Positions 1-36,723 of a stretch of 64,000 nt of DNA are shown here, in pieces (position 1 is the first letter of the stretch; each line of letters starts with the position of its first letter). A program made the position numbers and the translations under genes. This DNA comes from Escherichia coli (GTDB lineage Bacteria > Pseudomonadota > Gammaproteobacteria > Enterobacterales > Enterobacteriaceae): assembly GCF_003334355.1 (NCBI RefSeq), contig NZ_QOWP01000009.1; one strand, 5' to 3'. Below the pieces are notes generated by a model. That model made no database searches. It saw nothing but the letters and a program-made list of their open reading frames with translations, and was not told the origin of the DNA.

Positions 1-158
1 AGCAGGGGATTGACCGGATGGCCGGACGTCACTCCGCCGGGGCACACCGAACAGGCCACGCCGGTGGGGGCACCAATACGTACCCCGGCTGAACCCTGAA
101 CAATGCTACCGCCATACTGCGTCATGTCACCCTGACGCGCCGCCGGTTTTCCGCTCAT
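1..158 (-). CDS. rhsB: Rhs-family polymorphic toxin protein, N-terminal fragment (runs off window start)
   Basis: Reverse-complement of 1..158 translates MSGKPAARQGDMTQYGGSIVQGSAGVRIGAPTGVACSVCPGGVTSGHPVNPLL, the conserved N-terminus of E. coli Rhs proteins; start codon complement at 156..158; position next to nikR matches rhsB. Shorter than the ORF-track cutoff, so hand-translated. Confidence 0.8.
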   Translation of the reverse strand, partial: MSGKPAARQGDMTQYGGSIVQGSAGVRIGAPTGVACSVCPGGVTSGHPVNPL

Positions 159-360
159 CGTAAAATCCTTTTCTATTATTTTAATGACAGTATCTTCATA
201 CGAAAAAGCGAAGAAAAACTTGTGGTCACAATGAATTGAAGATTTTTAGGAATATATTTAGAACGTTACAAAAGAGAAGGTTCGGATAGGGTATTTAGAG
301 AGGAATCAGGTGTGCTAGTGGCCCTTTGTTGATCGTTCACCAAAGGACCCAATAATAGAC

Positions 361-3164
<2,804 letters not shown>

Positions 3165-4109: not shown

Positions 4110-5683
4110 TAAGGTTTCACCGGTTTAATCTGTTCGAACGGAATTTCGGTGGCGATCGGCGCGTAGGGGATGTTACCCAGCTCCGGTTTTGATACCACCA
4201 TCATTGAGATGTAACTGATAGGCAGATAAACCGCCTCGTCATGCAGACGGGTCAGAATGTCGCGATACAGCGCCTGATGTTGCGTTTCGTCATGGGTCGC
4301 CAGCACTTCGCCGATCTCTTTATCAATCAGCGGTTTGTCGGCTAATCCTTGCTGTGCCTGGAAGTCAGCGTGTGACGGTACGCGCATTGAACTGAGGAAG
4401 GCGTGTGGATCATATGGCGCGCCCCAGGTGCGGTGGAAAATCATGCCAAAACGACCGTCGCGCTGACGAGCATAGATACTGCTCTCTTCTTCGCCAATCA
4501 GCGAGACATCTGCGCCAATCTGGCGCATATCAGCCTGAATGATTTCCGCCATCGATTTGCTTAACGCATCGGTGCCGATGAACGACAGTTCAATGCGCAG
4601 CGGCTGACCATTTTTCTCGCGGATGTCTTTGCCCGCAGGCAGCGTCCAACCGGCTTTTTCCAGCAACGCTTTCGCTTTCTGCGGATCGTACTGGCGCGGT
4701 TTCAGGCCGAGGTTGGCGTAGGGCACAGAAGGGGCAAACAGGGTGTCGGCGACCTGCTGGGTGCCATACAACGCGTTATCAATCAGCGATTTTTTGTTTA
4801 CCGCGTAATTAAGAGCTTCACGTACTGCCAGCTCATTGGTGGGGGCTTTGGCGGTATTAAGCGCCAGCATCACGGTTTCGATCGGCTGTGACAGTTGGGT
4901 ATGGTAAGCCGGGTTCTGGCTAAAGCGGGCGAAGGTATCGAGCGGTAATAACCCTTCGTTTCCGTACAGCAGGTCGATATCGCCAGTTTCAAACGCCACC
5001 GCGCGGGTAGTCGGGTCCGGGATGACGTTAAAGGTGATCTTTTTAATCGCTGGCTTTTCGCCCCAGTAGTTTTCGTTACGGACGAAGACATCGTACTGAT
5101 TCAGTTTCGATTCCTGCAAAATCCACGGTCCGGTGCCAATCGGCGCTTTAATTCCGTTCATGGTTTCATGGTTTTTAAACTGCGAGGGGGCGATAAAGCG
5201 GAAAGGGCGCGGCAGGGCCAGTTCTTGCAGGAAAGGATAGTAGGCGCTTTTCAGGGTGATTTGCAGCTCTGTTTTACTGAGTGCTTTAACATCAACAATC
5301 TGGTTTGCCAGCTCCAGCCAGGCGTGACGTTGACGGTTATCGAGCACTGCGCGGAAGTTTTCTGCCGCCGCCTCGGCATCGAACGGTTCACCGTTGGAGA
5401 ATTTCACGTCATCACGCAGGGTGAAGGTCCAGGTTTTACCATCTTCTGAATGAGTCCAGCTTTTTGCCAGCCACGGGATCACCGAACCGTCTGCCTGATA
5501 TTTCACCAATGGTTCATAAACCATGCTCTGGGCGAACATCTGGTTAGGCGTGTAAAGGTGCGGGTTTAGTGGCCCGACATTCACCGGCCAGGCGGTGGTG
5601 ATTTCATCTGGTGCAGCGGCATGGACGATAAAAGACGCACAAGCCAGCAGCGCAAATAGAGTGCGGCGGAGTGTGGAGAGCAT
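4109..5683 (-). CDS. nikA: Periplasmic nickel-binding protein NikA
   Basis: 524 aa ORF with N-terminal signal peptide ([25 protein letters not shown]); family-5 solute-binding protein; first gene of the operon. Confidence 0.93.
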
Positions 5684-5720
5684 GGTAACCCCAATGGATT
5701 AAAATAGATGGCGGAAATAA

Positions 5721-5748
5721 GTATGACGATTTTAAGTATTCGTCATAC
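5721..5748. promoter_or_regulatory. NikR operator (GTATGA-N16-TCATAC) in the nikA promoter
   Basis: Exact GTATGA at 5721..5726 and TCATAC at 5743..5748 separated by 16 nt, 38-65 bp upstream of the nikA start codon; matches the established NikR operator architecture. Confidence 0.8.
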
Positions 5749-5793
5749 TGATTACCTGTTCTGGATCAATAGATGGGCAGTCGGGTGGGCGGA

Positions 5794-6381
5794 TCAGTTA
5801 ACTGAATCGATCCATTGCACACTCTCGGCGGTGAGCGTAAAGGGGGTGGGGGTGCAGATCGCAAGGCTTAAATTTTCTAGCTGACAATGGCTGACTGACA
5901 GCGAGGAGTGATAGGTGCTATCTACGCTGACGATTTGCCAGGCGCTGCCGCCACGCTGTTTAACGATGGCTTCTTTGCGCGTCCAGATGCGCCAGAACAT
6001 TTCCAGTTGCTGCTCAGGATGCACGGCGTCCATTTCAGCGTGTTCCCCGAGGCTGAACACGGCGTTCGCCAGCCAGCGCCAGTTGGCGCGCGGGCGAATC
6101 ACTTCGATATCGCAGCCGACTTCGCCTTCATCGCTCAACAGCAGAGCGATATCGTCACCGCTATGGCTTAAGTTGAACCATAGCGGCGTTTCCGGCGCGA
6201 ATGCAGGTTTGCCTTGTTCGCCATAGATGATCTCCGGTAGCGGGGAAAGCGTGTGCGAAAGCAATGCACGCCCCGCCAGCCAGCGTTCGCGTCGTGGACC
6301 TTGCGGTGCTTGCTCGCGTAAACCCGGTGGCAGTGGAGCTGCGCTTAAGGTCGAAACTTTCCCCAGAACTATCCGATACAT
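5794..6381 (-). CDS. acpT: Holo-ACP synthase 2 / 4'-phosphopantetheinyl transferase AcpT
   Basis: 195 aa ORF; position between nikA and yhhT; length matches AcpT. Confidence 0.88.
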   Translation of the reverse strand: MYRIVLGKVSTLSAAPLPPGLREQAPQGPRRERWLAGRALLSHTLSPLPEIIYGEQGKPAFAPETPLWFNLSHSGDDIALLLSDEGEVGCDIEVIRPRANWRWLANAVFSLGEHAEMDAVHPEQQLEMFWRIWTRKEAIVKQRGGSAWQIVSVDSTYHSSLSVSHCQLENLSLAICTPTPFTLTAESVQWIDSVN

Positions 6382-6435
6382 ATCAGGGCCAACGTTTAAT
6401 GGAAAATGAAAGTGCGTATCGTATCACTTGTCGCC

Positions 6436-7485
6436 TCATCCCGGTAACCGACTTTTCGGTCTGCCTGGCCCCAGTAAAATCGCCAGTTTGCTACCGCCTT
6501 TGGTGGTTTCCATCCAGATTTTACACACACTGGTTAATGGCACCGAAAGTAGCATCCCTACCGGGCCGAGCAGCCATCCCCAAATTAACAATGAAAGAAA
6601 TACCACCATGGTGGACATCCCCAGGCGATGGCCCATCATCCGTGGCTCTAAAATATTGCCGATGACCATATGGACAACTAAAAACAATGCGCCGACCAGA
6701 ATACATTCGTAAATACCATTAAACAGCAGCACCTGAATCATTGGCGGTACGGCGGAAATTACCGCGCCGATATTGGGCACGTAGTTAAGCAAAAACGCCA
6801 GTACTGCCCACATCAGCGCAAACTGTACCCCCATCAGCTCCAGCCCCAGCCAGACGATGACACCTGTCCATAAACTGAGTAGCGTCTTCAATGCAAGATA
6901 GTGCGAAACGCCTTTAAGTGCGCGGTGTAATCCCGCGATGTGAATCTGTGGATTATTCAGCGCAAAACGCATTTTGTAAGGGACGTGGCGCACTTCAAAC
7001 AGCATAAAAACTACGGTCATCACCAGCAAAAACACGCTCGCCATTGCCCCGGAAAGCCCGGTCATTAGCGCTGTGGTGAAGGTAACCACTTTTTCCGAGT
7101 CCATCCGCTGCAGCATTCGCTCCGGCGACATATGCAAATTAAGAAAAGGCAACATCTCCTGCAATTTAAAAAGTTTGCGCGTCAGCTCCTTATTAAACTT
7201 CGGCAGCATAGAGATAAATTCGTTAAACGATGCCGCCAGTACGCCGACCAGCGCGGTTAGTGCGATCAGCATCACCACCACTACAATCGTAATGGCAACG
7301 GGGCGTTGTACTCCCCGACGAATAAACCAGGTGACGAGCGGGTTGAGGACGATGGCAAAAAACAGCGCCAGTAACAGCTGCACAATGATATCTGCCGCTG
7401 CGTGAATGCCCGCGAGGATCACTACCAGCGAGGCCAGCTTGAGCAGAATGTGCATGCCCGTTTTATCGGGTTGAGGGGTTTCCAT
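6436..7485 (-). CDS. yhhT: AI-2E (PerM) family membrane transporter YhhT
   Basis: ORF track 6436..7566 (376 aa); start placed at internal Met (METPQPDKTG..., codon complement 7483..7485) to give 349 aa; multi-TM protein. Upstream in-frame ATG at 7566 is an alternative start. Confidence 0.85.
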   Translation of the reverse strand: METPQPDKTGMHILLKLASLVVILAGIHAAADIIVQLLLALFFAIVLNPLVTWFIRRGVQRPVAITIVVVVMLIALTALVGVLAASFNEFISMLPKFNKELTRKLFKLQEMLPFLNLHMSPERMLQRMDSEKVVTFTTALMTGLSGAMASVFLLVMTVVFMLFEVRHVPYKMRFALNNPQIHIAGLHRALKGVSHYLALKTLLSLWTGVIVWLGLELMGVQFALMWAVLAFLLNYVPNIGAVISAVPPMIQVLLFNGIYECILVGALFLVVHMVIGNILEPRMMGHRLGMSTMVVFLSLLIWGWLLGPVGMLLSVPLTSVCKIWMETTKGGSKLAILLGPGRPKSRLPG

Positions 7486-7616
7486 TGGGGCTTCCTTGTG
7501 ACTTTTTGTATTAAGTGTAGCGGGAGTCACGCCAGCAATATTCTGATTCTTACTGCTGATTTTCACGTCAGCACATGGTAAAAATGAAACACTGTTGTAA
7601 AAATGTGGTGATCCTC

Positions 7617-8834
7617 ATGCCCGAACCCGTAGCCGAACCCGCGCTAAACGGATTGCGCCTGAATTTGCGCATTGTCTCCATTGTCATGTTTAACTTCGCC
7701 AGCTACCTCACCATCGGGTTGCCGCTCGCTGTATTACCGGGCTATGTCCATGATGTGATGGGCTTTAGCGCTTTCTGGGCAGGATTGGTTATCAGCCTGC
7801 AATATTTCGCCACCTTGCTGAGCCGCCCTCATGCCGGACGTTATGCCGATTTGCTGGGACCCAAAAAGATTGTCGTCTTCGGTTTATGCGGCTGCTTTTT
7901 GAGCGGTCTGGGATATCTGACGGCAGGATTAACCGCCAGTCTGCCCGTCATCAGCCTGTTATTACTTTGCCTGGGACGCGTGATCCTTGGGATTGGGCAA
8001 AGTTTTGCCGGAACGGGATCGACCCTGTGGGGCGTTGGCGTGGTTGGCTCGCTGCATATCGGGCGGGTGATTTCGTGGAACGGCATTGTCACTTACGGGG
8101 CGATGGCGATGGGTGCGCCGTTAGGCGTCGTGTTTTATCACTGGGGCGGCTTGCAGGCGTTAGCGTTAATCATTATGGGCGTGGCGCTGGTGGCCATTTT
8201 GTTGGCGCTCCCGCGTCCGACGGTAAAAGCCAGTAAAGGCAAACCGCTGCCGTTTCGCGCGGTGCTTGGGCGCGTCTGGCTGTACGGTATGGCGCTGGCA
8301 CTGGCTTCCGCCGGATTTGGCGTCATCGCCACCTTTATCACGCTGTTTTATGACGCTAAAGGTTGGGACGGTGCGGCTTTCGCGCTGACGCTGTTTAGCT
8401 GTGCGTTTGTCGGTACGCGTTTGTTATTCCCTAACGGCATTAACCGTATCGGTGGCTTAAACGTAGCGATGATTTGCTTTAGCGTTGAGATAATCGGCCT
8501 GCTACTGGTTGGCGTGGCGACTATGCCGTGGATGGCGAAAATCGGCGTCTTACTGGCGGGGGCCGGGTTTTCGCTGGTGTTCCCGGCATTGGGTGTAGTG
8601 GCGGTAAAAGCGGTTCCGCAGCAAAATCAGGGGGCGGCGCTGGCAACTTACACCGTATTTATGGATTTATCGCTTGGCGTGACTGGACCACTGGCTGGGC
8701 TGGTGATGAGCTGGGCGGGCGTACCGGTGATTTATCTGGCGGCGGCGGGACTGGTCGCAATCGCGTTATTACTGACGTGGCGATTAAAAAAACGGCCTCC
8801 GGAACACGTCCCTGAGGCCGCCTCATCATCTTAA
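7617..8834 (+). CDS. yhhS: MFS transporter YhhS
   Basis: ORF track 7575..8834; start placed at ATG 7617 (MPEPVAEPALNG...) giving 405 aa; 12-TM MFS pattern; divergent from yhhT. Confidence 0.85.
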   Translation: MPEPVAEPALNGLRLNLRIVSIVMFNFASYLTIGLPLAVLPGYVHDVMGFSAFWAGLVISLQYFATLLSRPHAGRYADLLGPKKIVVFGLCGCFLSGLGYLTAGLTASLPVISLLLLCLGRVILGIGQSFAGTGSTLWGVGVVGSLHIGRVISWNGIVTYGAMAMGAPLGVVFYHWGGLQALALIIMGVALVAILLALPRPTVKASKGKPLPFRAVLGRVWLYGMALALASAGFGVIATFITLFYDAKGWDGAAFALTLFSCAFVGTRLLFPNGINRIGGLNVAMICFSVEIIGLLLVGVATMPWMAKIGVLLAGAGFSLVFPALGVVAVKAVPQQNQGAALATYTVFMDLSLGVTGPLAGLVMSWAGVPVIYLAAAGLVAIALLLTWRLKKRPPEHVPEAASSS

Positions 8835-8837
8835 AAC

Positions 8838-9395
8838 TTACTGAATAACCAGCGTATTAATGATGTTTTCTGCGGTGGTCTGCGCTTTTTGCTGATCGTC
8901 AGCGGGCAGCGTAATTTGCATGGTCAGCAGTTGATTACCCACGTTACCCAGAATAACGGAAGAGTACGCCGTCTGGCCTTTCGCGGAGATAATACTGTCT
9001 AACTGCTGCATTTTGTGACCTTTCAGCTCAATGGCTTTATTGGTTACCACTTGCAGCTGCGGATCGCGGCTACGTTGCTGATCTTCCAGACGCTTCGCCA
9101 GCACCGCCAGATCTTCTTTCGGATCATCGCCCATGATGACGATGACTGCTTTCTGCCCGGTGGCGTCGGACCAGACATGCATGTTATTGGCCTGCGTTCC
9201 CAGCTTACCGCTCTGGTCGGTCATATCCGCTGGCAGCGAGAAACTTAACTTGCCATCAAGCAGGTTGACGGGATTCCCGGTAGCGTTACTTTCCGCGACC
9301 GAACCCTGCGCCGTAGCGTTAGTGTCTTTATCATCACAGGCCGCAAGCCCCATAACCAGCAGGCCAATTCCGACATATTTAACCAGATTGCGCAT
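8838..9395 (-). CDS. dcrB: Periplasmic lipoprotein DcrB
   Basis: ORF track 8838..9449; start at internal Met ([20 protein letters not shown]...) gives 185 aa with lipobox LAAC. Confidence 0.85.
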
Positions 9396-35053: not shown

Positions 35054-35548
35054 TTATGAACAACTGTCCATGATTTCGTTTAAGAATGAAGAGAAATCAC
35101 TAAACGAACTGAATATATTTTCTGTGCCGATATTATCTCTAATTTCAAAAAAGTTACTTTTAATGTCATAAGTAAATATTGAAATGCTATCATCCCCGAT
35201 CACTAACCGTTCTTGTAGATCAGGGTTTATGAAATCATCATTATTTCTATAAAATTCATTTACGGCAAAAAGGTTTTTAACTGAAGGTTCTGGAATCGAG
35301 AGGCTAAATAATCGTAATCCATTAACTTCGAATCCATCCATTGCTCTTAAAAAAGTAAGATAATCAGGTTGATTCTTAAAAAGAATACTAACTTCATTAC
35401 ATAACTTCTCCAGGCAATTAGTTGAATTAGAATTAAATTCTATTTGGATTATACTTTCAATAAATGATTCCTTGAGCGGTGCTTCAAATGGATAGTCTAA
35501 ATCATTCATCATTTTTATTAATTTATTTATTTGGGTTTTAGTCATCAT
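35054..35548 (-). CDS. yrhA: Putative immunity protein for the YhhZ nuclease toxin (intact YrhA-like, 164 aa)
   Basis: 164 aa acidic ORF immediately downstream of yhhZ with ATGA start/stop overlap (35545..35548); AT-rich; position matches yrhA. Immunity role is inferred from the gene arrangement. Confidence 0.7.
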   Translation of the reverse strand: MMTKTQINKLIKMMNDLDYPFEAPLKESFIESIIQIEFNSNSTNCLEKLCNEVSILFKNQPDYLTFLRAMDGFEVNGLRLFSLSIPEPSVKNLFAVNEFYRNNDDFINPDLQERLVIGDDSISIFTYDIKSNFFEIRDNIGTENIFSSFSDFSSFLNEIMDSCS

Positions 35549-36723
35549 TTTGTGTGGTCCATAATATTTTTCATGGGAGGATAAATTGAGCCAGATGGAA
35601 TGGCCCAGGGAGTGATTTTGCTTTCACCTACTAATATTCCCTTAGCTATTCGTGATTGTATGTTAGTAAAAACTTTATGATATGGTTCGTTTTCGATTAA
35701 TACTAAATTTTCGAAATCATTAGTACCACCATCATCTAGAGATAGTTTATGGTGAACATTATAATTTAGAGGAACATTGCCCTTTCTCATTCTTAAAAGG
35801 TCTTCGGCGTTGAATCTTCCAGATGCTTCGGAGGTTTTTGCAAGTTTGATAAGAAAATTTTTTCTTACAGTTTTATTAAACTCCTTTCGTAAGTTAGCTA
35901 AGTCTTTTGAAGGTCTCTTAATGTATATTATTTCTATTATGTCTATACCATCAAGAAGTTTTTGTTGACCTCTAAGTTTGCCTAAGTAACTATTTATTTC
36001 TGTATATGTATCAACATTATAACGCTTTGTTAAAAGAATAGATGCTGTTGCTATCGCTATGCCCGCTGTTTTTTCATTTAGTATTTGATCATAGCCTTTT
36101 ATTGCATCTCCACCCAGTTTTTCCGCAGTATCTCTGAATCCTTCAATGTTCCCATTGTATACGCCACCAGCAGCAAGTAGCCTGCCAATAGCTTTGCTGT
36201 TTAACGTTTTGAAACGATTATTTGTTTGGTTTTTTGAATTTGGTAAAAACAAACGGTTATAATTTTCAGGGAGTGCCAAATAGCTGAACTCGGTATTTGC
36301 GATAAGATGTTGACAGAGGATAAATTCATAACTAATAGTTATTTTTTCTGTATCCAGTTGGTTTTCAATGATCTGGTGATGAATAGCCGATAAAAAAGCG
36401 CCTCTTAGTTGTATATAATAATACTTTTCCCATCTACCAAATCTATTTATTCGATAGAAGTCAAATCCCATAAATAATTGTTCATTATTGTTAATGGAAT
36501 TAATAAATAATGGAGTGCTTTTATCAATTAATTTACAAAATGTTATACCATGGAACTGTGAACCAAGCCCCGTATTATTAATATTATTTAAGAGTGAGAA
36601 TGTAAATGTTTCATCCTCATGCCCGCTCTGCCAACGATTACCTGTAGACTCAGAAGTCCCACAACCTGCGGAGATGCTTCCTTGTTGTTCTCCCGTTACT
36701 GTCAGGTAAACAATATTACTCAT
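35545..36723 (-). CDS. yhhZ: Hcp-domain protein fused to C-terminal HNH nuclease (Hcp-ET-like orphan T6SS effector)
   Basis: 392 aa ORF; N-terminal ~160 aa shows the Hcp pattern (MSNIVYLTVTGEQQGS...KLIDKSTPLF), C-terminus carries an HNH/beta-beta-alpha-Me motif (NYNVHHKLSLDDGGTNDFENLVLIENEPYH); markedly AT-rich versus flanking genes. Confidence 0.85.
   Translation of the reverse strand: MSNIVYLTVTGEQQGSISAGCGTSESTGNRWQSGHEDETFTFSLLNNINNTGLGSQFHGITFCKLIDKSTPLFINSINNNEQLFMGFDFYRINRFGRWEKYYYIQLRGAFLSAIHHQIIENQLDTEKITISYEFILCQHLIANTEFSYLALPENYNRLFLPNSKNQTNNRFKTLNSKAIGRLLAAGGVYNGNIEGFRDTAEKLGGDAIKGYDQILNEKTAGIAIATASILLTKRYNVDTYTEINSYLGKLRGQQKLLDGIDIIEIIYIKRPSKDLANLRKEFNKTVRKNFLIKLAKTSEASGRFNAEDLLRMRKGNVPLNYNVHHKLSLDDGGTNDFENLVLIENEPYHKVFTNIQSRIAKGILVGESKITPWAIPSGSIYPPMKNIMDHTK

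What the first reader, a model, noticed from the sequence alone, without database searches (positions are those of the whole stretch)
1..360. 5' end of an Rhs polymorphic-toxin gene at the window edge
The first 158 bp encode, on the minus strand, the canonical Rhs N-terminus (MSGKPAARQGDMTQYGG...), with a roughly 200-bp AT-rich promoter region before nikR. The body of the gene, including any variable C-terminal toxin tip and immunity gene, lies outside the window. Together with the YhhZ cassette, this window touches two separate polymorphic-toxin loci.
Basis: partly seen in the sequence, partly recalled or inferred. Interest (0 to 1): 0.4.

Follow-up and report, generated by a model that had tools for sequence, protein, structure and literature searches.

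The report
Start of the E. coli rhsB toxin gene
The first 158 bases of the window are the true start of rhsB, a long-known E. coli Rhs toxin gene cut off only by the window edge, so the finding is correct but ordinary.

Summary
Window 158→1 (minus strand) encodes MSGKPAARQGDMTQYGG…PVNPL. This matches positions 1-52 of NCBI's RHS_core profile (E = 8e-28) and is annotated rhsB in every matching E. coli genome.

The window is E. coli but not K-12. Its nearest complete genome, PSS-12, is about 100% identical over the two 25-kb ends compared and differs by one IS5 insertion. There the gene continues as an intact 1,411-aa rhsB. It has a YD-repeat shell, a DPxG-x18-DPxG self-cleavage motif, a DUF4329/Tox-JAB-2 toxin tip, the immunity gene yhhH (Imm-NTF2-2), a yibA remnant and ISEc1.

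Of 5,426 complete E. coli genomes, 2,120 carry this nikR–rhs junction and 2,025 carry at least 80% of the whole element. A truncated stub is therefore unlikely, at roughly 5%.

The 52 codons correspond almost exactly to the 47-residue PAAR-like N-terminal fragment defined in P. aeruginosa Tse5, plus five plug residues. The 202-bp spacer (35% GC) is part of the inserted element. It holds no σ70 consensus on the gene's strand. It does hold an RcsB-box-like block shared with rhsA and rhsC, and a published study predicts BglJ–RcsB sites at rhsA and rhsB.

The nikR–yhhJ rhs locus is already catalogued. Verdict: already known, low interest.

The parts
1..158 (-). First 52 codons (plus 2 bases) of rhsB. 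The gene runs off the window edge.
   Evidence: Translation. RHS_core profile positions 1-52, E = 8e-28. Annotated rhsB in PSS-12 and K-12.
18..158 (-). Codons 1-47, the equivalent of the Tse5 N-terminal fragment (PAAR-like piece thought to dock on the VgrG spike). It ends at H47, just before the aligned cleavage position.
   Evidence: Tse5 shell chain 8cp6_B starts at PVNPMLG, which aligns with RhsB P48. Tse5-NT is M1-K47, cleaved at K47|P48 and described as PAAR-like and essential for secretion (PMC10684867). Cleavage of RhsB itself is inferred.
72..155 (-). Codons 2-29, a single PAAR-like repeat unit (GKPAARQGDMTQYGGSIVQGSAGVRIG).
   Evidence: Aligns only with the last repeat unit of true PAAR proteins: 9rce E = 0.003, 4jiv E = 0.027, 4jiw, 8gra. 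Pfam PAAR_motif gives partial hits, E = 0.0084 and 0.6. NCBIfam T6SS_PAAR_dom scores 17.6 bits against a cutoff of 124.
1..17 (-). Codons 48-52 (PVNPL) plus 2 bases, the start of the DUF6531 N-terminal plug of the Rhs shell.
   Evidence: Pfam DUF6531 covers residues 46-123 of the full protein. DUF6531 is the N-terminal plug in the Tse5 structure.
166..170 (-). Shine-Dalgarno AAGGA, 7 nt before the ATG.
   Evidence: Read directly from the sequence. Conserved as AAGGA upstream of rhsA and rhsC.
159..360 (-). 202-bp AT-rich leader/spacer. It belongs to the accessory RhsB element, not the core genome, and is the presumed rhsB regulatory region.
   Evidence: In genomes without rhs at this site, homology to the window stops at the nikR stop codon. 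GC is 35.1%. Nearly invariant among strains. No Rfam match.
246..260 (-). TAAATATATTCCTAA, an RcsB-box-like block 88-102 nt upstream of the ATG. Candidate BglJ–RcsB or RcsB site.
   Evidence: Shared with the rhsA and rhsC upstream regions and degraded at rhsD. Matches 12 of 14 positions of the RcsAB box and exactly matches the wwTTCykA core quoted in PMC3950696. It is the only match with 2 or fewer mismatches in 64 kb, against 0.24 expected. Function is not shown.
178..183 (-). TAAAAT, a possible -10 hexamer. Speculative: the corresponding -35 (TTTTCG) is poor.
   Evidence: Read from the sequence. Not reported by the consensus scan.
320..349 (-). Hairpin 12 nt after the nikR stop (9-bp stem plus 3-bp extension) with no U-tract. 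At best a weak terminator for the nik operon.
   Evidence: RNA fold. Not called as an intrinsic terminator. It lies within the accessory DNA.
361..762 (-). nikR, the core-genome gene immediately upstream (context). Its stop codon marks the left boundary of the Rhs element.
   Evidence: ORF list and annotation. Junction alignment.

Best explanation
Window 1-158 is the 5' end of an intact rhsB gene, the first gene of the RhsB accessory element inserted between nikR and yhhJ in about 39% of complete E. coli genomes. The window edge cuts the gene; biology does not.

**Encoded protein, read from the nearest genome (PSS-12).** It has the standard Rhs toxin architecture:
- a 47-residue N-terminal piece with one PAAR-like unit, which in relatives mounts the protein on the VgrG spike of a type VI secretion system;
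- a DUF6531 plug and a YD-repeat shell that encloses the toxin;
- a C-terminal aspartyl-protease plug (DPIG-x18-DPLG) that cuts off the tip after PISDIDPLGL;
- a 164-residue DUF4329/Tox-JAB-2 tip carrying the E…HTH…SxxD metal-hydrolase signature, with predicted nuclease or RNase activity;
- the downstream gene yhhH, an Imm-NTF2-2 protein that would neutralise the toxin in the producer.

**Genomic setting.** The gene is 'neighbourless': nikR, not vgrG or eagR, lies upstream. The 202-bp AT-rich leader came in with the element. It probably carries an activator-dependent promoter normally silent in culture, with an RcsB-type box at -88 to -102.

**Shown versus inferred.** Sequence identity, domain content, locus structure and population frequency are shown. 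Secretion, N-terminal cleavage at H47|P48, toxin activity, immunity and regulation are inferred from homologues and the literature.

**Confidence.** The stated confidence refers to the identity and architecture (5' end of an intact rhsB-type toxin gene). Actual T6SS delivery in this strain is much less certain.
For: - **Identity.** Translation and the RHS_core match. 100% identity over 800 bp to many rhsB-bearing genomes.
- **Nearest genome.** PSS-12 is identical over the 989-bp overlap with the window start and about 100% identical over the two 25-kb ends compared. It has a full 1,411-aa rhsB scoring 2,640 bits against the RHS_core cutoff of 2,000.
- **Domains.** DUF6531, RHS repeats and RHS domain. 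PISDIDPLGL at residues 1238-1247. DUF4329, E = 2.6e-39, equated with Tox-JAB-2, whose predicted immunity family is Imm-NTF2 family 2 (PMC3482391). YhhH matches Imm-NTF2-2, E = 5.6e-26.
- **Composition.** GC-rich core followed by an AT-rich tip.
- **Frequency.** 2,120 genomes have the junction, 2,025 have at least 80% of the element, and 2,684 have the tip+yhhH module, 2,640 of them at ≥99% identity.
- **Structural relative.** Tse5 homology and its cleavage site.
- **Literature.** nikR–yhhJ is listed as rhs locus 9 (PMC2935791).
- **Regulation.** RcsB-like box and the published BglJ–RcsB prediction.
Against: - The true source genome is not in the collection. The window lacks the IS5 that PSS-12 carries in yhhZ, so the gene body is inferred from relatives, not read.
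- About 5% of genomes with this junction have decayed elements, for example the IS1-truncated rhs in strain 43905.
- The N-terminus is not a full PAAR domain.
- No vgrG or eagR gene is adjacent.
- K-12 and B strains lack a T6SS (PMC6730261), and PSS-12 has none at aspV, so delivery in this strain is doubtful.
- I found no experimental test of E. coli RhsB-CT/YhhH in the library: a search for papers naming both rhsB and yhhH returned only a genome announcement.
- No σ70 consensus promoter lies on the gene's strand in the spacer.
Confidence: 0.92

Rival explanations
1. The gene is intact but is a cryptic, undeployed relic. The strain, like K-12, has no type VI secretion system, so RhsB is not delivered to neighbours. 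The element would persist as retained immunity, as a reservoir and recombination substrate for other rhs loci, or through a secretion-independent effect such as the stationary-phase viability block reported for RhsA.
For: K-12 and B strains lack a T6SS yet keep rhs genes (PMC6730261). PSS-12 has only IS remnants at the aspV locus. The gene is neighbourless, with nikR upstream. The RhsA C-terminus with YibA gives an intracellular viability block (Vlazny & Hill 1995, as cited in PMC3150448). rhsA and rhsB act as recombination substrates, and cores are homogenised within a genome.
Against: The ORF, the tip and yhhH are kept intact and ≥99% identical in about 2,600 genomes, which suggests selection on the coding sequence. 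T6SS absence was checked at only one locus of one relative. Neighbourless Rhs proteins are reported to be related to T6SS2-linked Rhs (PMC6730261).
Confidence: 0.35
2. Beyond the window edge the gene is truncated or disrupted by an IS insertion, deletion or frameshift, so the 158 bp head only a stub.
For: Such cases exist. In strain 43905 the rhs gene at this locus ends in an IS1 and yhhH is lost. 95 of the 2,120 genomes with the junction carry less than 80% of the element. One E. coli record (Origami2-DE3) annotates only a hypothetical protein here.
Against: The nearest genome and all 100%-identical genomes examined have a full-length rhsB. 2,025 of 2,120 genomes carry at least 80% of the element.
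Confidence: 0.05
3. The 202-bp spacer is not a dedicated promoter. rhsB would be transcribed, if at all, by read-through from the nikABCDE-nikR operon, because the hairpin after nikR lacks a U-tract.
For: nikR and rhsB are on the same strand, 202 bp apart. No σ70 consensus lies on that strand in the spacer, and no intrinsic terminator is called there. The hairpin at 320-349 has no U-run.
Against: The spacer arrived with the Rhs element rather than with nikR. The RcsB-box-like block is shared with rhsA and rhsC, which have unrelated upstream genes. BglJ–RcsB sites at rhsA and rhsB were predicted independently. Activator-dependent promoters typically score poorly in consensus scans.
Confidence: 0.2

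Closest known systems
E. coli K-12 RhsB element (rhsB-yhhH-yhhI, b3482 region; Hill laboratory; rhs locus 9, nikR–yhhJ, in Jackson et al. 2009)
   Same: Same locus, same flanks and same gene order. The first 800 bp are 100% identical. The PSS-12 protein has the same length as K-12's and differs at 26 of 1,411 residues, all in the core. The toxin tip is identical, and YhhH differs at 2 residues.
   Different: The window is not K-12: 138 mismatches over 12.8 kb. Core substitutions are clustered, and K-12 rhsB resembles K-12 rhsA more than it resembles PSS-12 rhsB.
Pseudomonas aeruginosa Tse5 (RhsP1), PDB 8CP6
   Same: It is the best-scoring solved relative (E = 1.7e-125). It has the same layout: a roughly 47-residue PAAR-like N-terminal fragment, a PVNPxLG start of the DUF6531 plug at residue 48, a YD shell and a DPxG…DPxG protease plug.
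   Different: The Tse5 tip is a pore-forming toxin, not DUF4329. Tse5 is linked to a VgrG and the H1-T6SS. The residue before the cleavage point is K47 in Tse5 and H47 here. Cleavage has not been tested for RhsB.
Salmonella SPI-6 'PAAR-RhsA-DUF4329' candidate effectors and EHEC RhsB (z5488)
   Same: Rhs proteins with the same DUF4329 tip family, classed in those papers as putative RNases (PMC10469887, PMC7216683).
   Different: The Salmonella genes lie inside a T6SS island. The activity is a bioinformatic assignment in all cases, and Zhang et al. predict a JAB-fold hydrolase that may be a nuclease.
Canonical PAAR proteins (V. cholerae VCA0105, 4JIV; E. coli c1882, 4JIW)
   Same: The literal PAAR motif, and one repeat unit (PAARxGDxxxxGGxIxxGxxxVxIG) that aligns with their third unit.
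   Different: Canonical PAAR domains have three such units in about 90 residues. RhsB has one unit in 47 residues and scores far below family cutoffs.
E. coli K-12 RhsA/YibA
   Same: A paralogous core that is homologous from the ATG onward. It shares the RcsB-like block upstream. A remnant of its immunity gene yibA lies downstream of yhhH in the RhsB element.
   Different: It has a different tip and immunity pair and a different chromosomal site (yibF–yibH). Apart from the block, the leader is unrelated to that of rhsB.

Membership tests
Rhs element core protein (NCBIfam NF041261 RHS_core) | N-terminus matches the start of the family profile | tested here: met
   Window peptide matches profile positions 1-52 of 1261, E = 8.2e-28.
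Rhs element core protein (NCBIfam NF041261 RHS_core) | Full-length core scoring above the curated cutoff (2,000 bits), with YD/RHS repeats | tested here: met
   Not testable on the window itself, which holds 52 codons. In the nearest genome, PSS-12: 2,639.6 bits over residues 1-1247, YD repeats E = 3e-40, and 14 Pfam RHS_repeat hits of which 9 have E ≤ 0.001.
Rhs element core protein (NCBIfam NF041261 RHS_core) | C-terminal PxxxxDPxGL / DPxG-x18-DPxG autoproteolysis motif marking the core–tip boundary | tested here: met
   PISDIDPLGL at residues 1238-1247, and DPIG-x18-DPLG read from the PSS-12 and K-12 sequences. Rhs_assc_core covers residues 1170-1247. This lies outside the window.
Polymorphic toxin system (Rhs-CT plus cognate immunity) | Variable AT-rich C-terminal toxin domain followed by a small immunity gene of the matching family | tested here: met
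   DUF4329/Tox-JAB-2, E = 2.6e-39, with E…HTH…SxxD residues present. YhhH matches Imm-NTF2-2, E = 5.6e-26. This pairing is the one predicted by Zhang et al. 2012. GC drops from about 62% to about 33%. This lies outside the window. Toxicity and immunity have not been tested.
PAAR domain (Pfam PF05488 / NCBIfam NF033420) | Complete domain of about 90 residues with three PAAR repeat units, scoring above family thresholds | tested here: not met
   Only partial hits: Pfam E = 0.0084 and 0.6, and NCBIfam 17.6 bits against a cutoff of 124. There is no PAAR hit in the 1-1200 scan. Residues 2-29 align only with the last unit of solved PAAR proteins. It is therefore 'PAAR-like', the term used for Tse5-NT.
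T6SS-delivered specialised Rhs effector | Genetic linkage to vgrG and/or an Eag (DUF1795) chaperone gene | tested here: not met
   The upstream neighbour is nikR and the downstream genes are yhhH and ISEc1. This fits the 'neighbourless' Rhs-Nb class described by Ma et al. 2017, as summarised in PMC6730261.
T6SS-delivered specialised Rhs effector | A type VI secretion system present in the same genome | tested here: inconclusive
   The window holds no T6SS structural genes apart from the Hcp-fusion yhhZ. PSS-12 has no T6SS cluster at aspV, and other loci were not examined. K-12 and B strains lack a T6SS.
T6SS-delivered specialised Rhs effector | T6SS- and VgrG-dependent secretion and contact-dependent killing | not testable with these tools
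   This needs competition and secretion assays.
BglJ–RcsB / RcsB regulon | Binding motif (wwTTCykA core; RcsAB box TaAGaatatTCctA) upstream of the promoter | tested here: met
   TAAATATATTCCTA at 247-260 (minus strand) matches 12 of 14 positions and the core exactly. It is the only such match in 64 kb and is shared with rhsA and rhsC. Whether this is the site predicted in PMC3950696 Fig. 3 could not be checked.
BglJ–RcsB / RcsB regulon | Activation of transcription by BglJ–RcsB that depends on the site | not testable with these tools
   The literature lists rhsA and rhsB only as putative targets.

The most novel reading that the evidence does not exclude
The RcsB-type box shared by the rhsA, rhsB and rhsC leaders marks a common envelope-stress- or BglJ-inducible switch for the 'neighbourless' Rhs toxins that carry a single PAAR unit. 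In T6SS-less lineages such as K-12 and perhaps this strain, these proteins would act without type VI secretion, for example as an inducible intracellular growth-arrest or abortive module held in check by YhhH.
Probability: 0.07. Interest if true: 0.45.

Novelty: already known. Interest (0 to 1): 0.07.

Why it matters
It matters little beyond correct annotation. rhsB is one of the founding members of the Rhs family: the family's name comes from rhsA/rhsB recombination. The nikR–yhhJ site is a catalogued rhs locus.

This analysis adds five modest points:
- **What the window holds.** It holds exactly the short PAAR-like N-terminal module, with the toxin and immunity genes just outside.
- **Spacer origin.** The AT-rich spacer is part of the mobile element.
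- **Invariant tip.** The DUF4329/YhhH pair is nearly invariant across about 2,600 genomes rather than polymorphic at this locus.
- **Missing experiments.** I found no experimental test of E. coli RhsB-CT/YhhH activity or of delivery in T6SS-less strains.
- **Regulatory lead.** A conserved RcsB-like box offers a concrete handle on how these normally silent genes might be switched on.

Tried and rejected
- **Rfam.** A scan of window 1-900 at E ≤ 1 found nothing.
- **Promoter and terminator scan.** No promoter on the rhsB strand within the spacer, and no terminator after nikR. The only hits were on the opposite strand or inside coding sequence.
- **RNA fold of the leader.** No more stable than shuffled sequence, z = 0.44, so there is no evidence for a structured leader.
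- **Toxin tip and YhhH.** NCBIfam gave no family for either. The tip has no meaningful sequence match in the PDB.
- **K-12 as the source.** Rejected: 138 mismatches over 12.8 kb.
- **PSS-12 as the exact source.** Rejected: PSS-12 has an IS5 in yhhZ that the window lacks.
- **Box conservation across divergent strains.** Uninformative, because the whole spacer is nearly invariant.
- **Different tips in divergent strains.** Other rhs gene lengths at this locus turned out to be a 12-nt core deletion with the same yhhH (strain 2313) and an IS1 truncation (strain 43905), not new tips.
- **T6SS in PSS-12.** Negative at aspV only, so inconclusive.
- **Script comparisons.** The IS5 difference was instead derived from annotation coordinates.
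- **Coordinates of the predicted BglJ–RcsB site.** They appear only in a figure, and no supplements are held.

Full report
**Observation.** The minus strand of window 158→1 translates without a stop to MSGKPAARQGDMTQYGGSIVQGSAGVRIGAPTGVACSVCPGGVTSGHPVNPL. An AAGGA ribosome-binding site lies 7 nt before the ATG. The peptide matches positions 1-52 of NCBI's curated RHS_core profile with E = 8e-28. nikR occupies 361-762 on the same strand. The spacer between them, 159-360, is 202 bp at 35.1% GC, in the lowest 3.6% of 202-bp windows in this 64-kb sequence.

**Source and extension.**
- The first 800 bases are 100% identical to many E. coli genomes, including K-12, and all annotate rhsB here.
- The window as a whole is not K-12: 138 mismatches over 12.8 kb.
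- The best complete genome is strain PSS-12, at about 100% identity over window 1-25000 and 39001-64000 and identical over the 989-bp overlap with the window start.
- The one structural difference found between those stretches is a 1,199-bp IS5 insertion that splits yhhZ in PSS-12. The window has the intact gene.
- The window therefore appears to come from a very close relative of PSS-12, and what lies past position 1 is inferred from relatives.

**What lies beyond the edge.** In both PSS-12 and K-12 the gene continues as a 4,236-nt, 1,411-codon rhsB. It is followed by yhhH, a HEAT-repeat pseudogene fragment and the ISEc1 transposase gene yhhI, and then by yhhJ. The two proteins differ at 26 residues, all before residue 1078.

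**Anatomy of the full gene.**
- The PSS-12 protein scores 2,640 bits against RHS_core, whose cutoff is 2,000.
- Pfam finds DUF6531 at residues 46-123, many RHS repeats and the RHS domain at 1143-1179.
- The core ends at PISDIDPLGL (residues 1238-1247) within a DPIG-x18-DPLG aspartyl-protease motif.
- GC falls from about 62% in the core to about 33% in the tip and downstream genes.
- The 164-residue tip matches Pfam DUF4329 with E = 2.6e-39.
- Zhang et al. 2012 equate DUF4329 with Tox-JAB-2, a JAB/deaminase-fold hydrolase with conserved E, H[ST]H, S and D residues. They propose it is a nuclease and predict Imm-NTF2 family 2 as its immunity partner.
- The RhsB tip contains …EDKEF…AYHTHGADS…FSGKD…, and YhhH matches Imm-NTF2-2 with E = 5.6e-26. 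The toxin/immunity pair therefore fits the published scheme.
- Later papers call DUF4329 tips putative RNases, again from bioinformatics. A search for papers naming both rhsB and yhhH returned only a genome announcement.

**What the 52 codons are.**
- The closest solved structure is P. aeruginosa Tse5 (E = 1.7e-125).
- Its shell chain begins PVNPMLG, which aligns with RhsB P48 (PVNPLLG).
[quoted passage not shown] DUF6531 forms the N-terminal plug.
- The window therefore holds the whole equivalent of that N-terminal fragment (window 158-18) plus five plug residues.
- Residues 2-29 align only weakly, and only with the last of the three repeat units of true PAAR proteins. Pfam and NCBIfam PAAR models are matched only partially and far below threshold.
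- 'PAAR-like single unit' is accurate. 'PAAR domain' is not supported.

**Locus context.**
- In genomes without rhs at this site, homology to the window ends at the nikR stop codon.
- In its place they carry either a GntR/PTS sugar island plus hicAB (O157:H7 and Nissle) or hicAB alone (strain H3).
- The 159-360 spacer is therefore part of the inserted RhsB element, and nikR–yhhJ is a variable hotspot. Jackson et al. 2009 list it as rhs locus 9.
- Of 5,426 complete genomes, 2,120 have the nikR–rhs junction and 2,025 have at least 80% of the stretch from nikR through the element to yhhJ in one place.
- 2,684 genomes have the tip+yhhH module, and 2,640 of them are ≥99% identical.
- Some genomes carry the same module at the rhsA-type locus followed by a full yibA. 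This explains the yibA-like remnant in the RhsB element.
- Odd gene lengths in divergent strains proved to be a small core deletion (strain 2313) and an IS1 truncation (strain 43905), not new tips.
- A decayed gene beyond the window edge is therefore possible but unlikely, at about 5%.

**Expression.**
- No σ70 consensus promoter lies on the rhsB strand in the spacer, and no intrinsic terminator follows nikR.
- A hairpin at 320-349 lacks a U-tract. Rfam finds nothing.
- Homology between rhsA and rhsB starts exactly at the ATG, but one 15-nt block, TAAATAT[A/T]TTCCTAA, is shared.
- The same block lies upstream of rhsC and in degraded form upstream of rhsD. rhsA and rhsC share the whole leader from that block to the ATG.
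- The block matches 12 of 14 positions of the RcsA–RcsB box and exactly matches the BglJ–RcsB core wwTTCykA quoted by Salscheider et al. They predicted BglJ–RcsB sites at rhsA and rhsB and list both as putative targets.
- It is the only match of that quality in the 64-kb window, against 0.24 expected.
- I could not verify that it is the very site in their figure. The spacer is too invariant among strains to test selection on the box.
- 'Promoter region' is therefore plausible, probably activator-dependent, and unproven. Read-through from nikR remains a rival.

**Delivery.**
- The gene has no vgrG or eag neighbour. This fits the 'neighbourless' Rhs class described for E. coli.
- K-12 and B strains have no T6SS, and PSS-12 has none at aspV. 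Other loci were not checked.
- The protein is clearly built like a T6SS-mounted Rhs toxin. Whether it is actually fired in this strain is open, and I give the cryptic-relic view about one chance in three.
- The rhsA/rhsB pair is also the classic substrate for 139-kb duplications. K-12 rhsA and rhsB are more alike than K-12 and PSS-12 rhsB are, consistent with homogenisation of cores within a genome.

**Side remark on YhhZ.** The window has an intact 392-codon yhhZ (35545-36723, minus strand). It has an N-terminal Hcp domain (TIGR03344, E = 3e-33; Pfam T6SS_HCP, E = 4e-10) and a weak HNH-like C-terminus (E = 0.013). It is followed by yrhA. The statement that the window touches two toxin loci holds.

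**Verdict.** The feature is the well-known rhsB gene at a catalogued locus, truncated only by the window boundary. Novelty: already known. Interest: low.

Noticed in passing
window 246-260 (minus strand); also L006 6079-6093 (rhsA) and L010 1969-1983 (rhsC): The 15-nt block TAAATAT[A/T]TTCCTAA is shared by the upstream regions of rhsA, rhsB and rhsC. It matches 12 of 14 positions of the RcsAB box and the BglJ–RcsB core wwTTCykA exactly, and it is the only such match in the 64-kb window. Published work predicts BglJ–RcsB sites at rhsA and rhsB.
   Followed up: partly
window 360/361 (nikR stop codon); L003, L004, L005: The nikR–yhhJ interval is a variable hotspot whose left junction falls exactly at the nikR stop codon. 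Alternatives to the RhsB element are a GntR/PTS-galactitol-type sugar island plus hicAB (O157:H7, Nissle) or hicAB alone (strain H3).
   Followed up: yes
window 35054-36723 (minus strand): There is an intact yhhZ (392 aa, N-terminal Hcp domain and weak HNH-like C-terminus) followed by yrhA. In the nearest genome, PSS-12, yhhZ is split by a 1,199-bp IS5 insertion, the one structural difference found from the window.
   Followed up: partly
L002 15625-15975 (PSS-12); L001 17338-17688 (K-12): The HEAT-repeat/'lyase' pseudogene between yhhH and ISEc1 is a remnant of the rhsA immunity gene yibA. Other strains carry rhs(DUF4329 tip)-yhhH followed by a full yibA at another locus, which suggests the RhsB element derives from such an arrangement and was then truncated by ISEc1.
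   Followed up: partly
window 100-365, compared with L012-L015: The spacer and the rhs 5' end are nearly invariant. In strain 43905, whose 800-bp nikE–nikR–rhs stretch is about 3.5% divergent overall, only 5 of 266 aligned positions differ. The element therefore appears younger, or more recently exchanged, than its core-genome flank.
   Followed up: partly
L001 14992-15892, L002 17421-18321, L006 8542-9442: K-12 rhsA and rhsB are almost identical over this 900-nt core stretch, while PSS-12 rhsB differs from both at clustered sites. This is consistent with gene conversion between paralogous cores within a genome.
   Followed up: partly
L016 (strain 43905) 4321-9175: The rhs gene at the nikR locus is truncated at its 3' end by an IS1, with yhhH lost. 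This is an example of decay of the element.
   Followed up: no
L009 (PSS-12 1965001-2015000): PSS-12 carries what looks like a complete Flag-2 lateral flagellar gene cluster (lafA to lafU). Between tRNA-Asp (aspV) and yafV it has only IS1 and an ISAs1 fragment, and no T6SS genes.
   Followed up: no
window 320-349 (minus strand): A stable hairpin (9-bp stem plus 3-bp extension) lies 12 nt after the nikR stop, with no U-tract. It belongs to the inserted element. The O157/Nissle island supplies a different inverted repeat (GCGCCGT…ACGGCGC, read from the alignment) at the same place.
   Followed up: partly
NZ_CP172331.1 277139-278715 (hit H1): Strain APEC-O117H42 has an IS1X2 insertion within the stretch from the nikE 3' end through nikR to the rhsB 5' end.
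   Followed up: no
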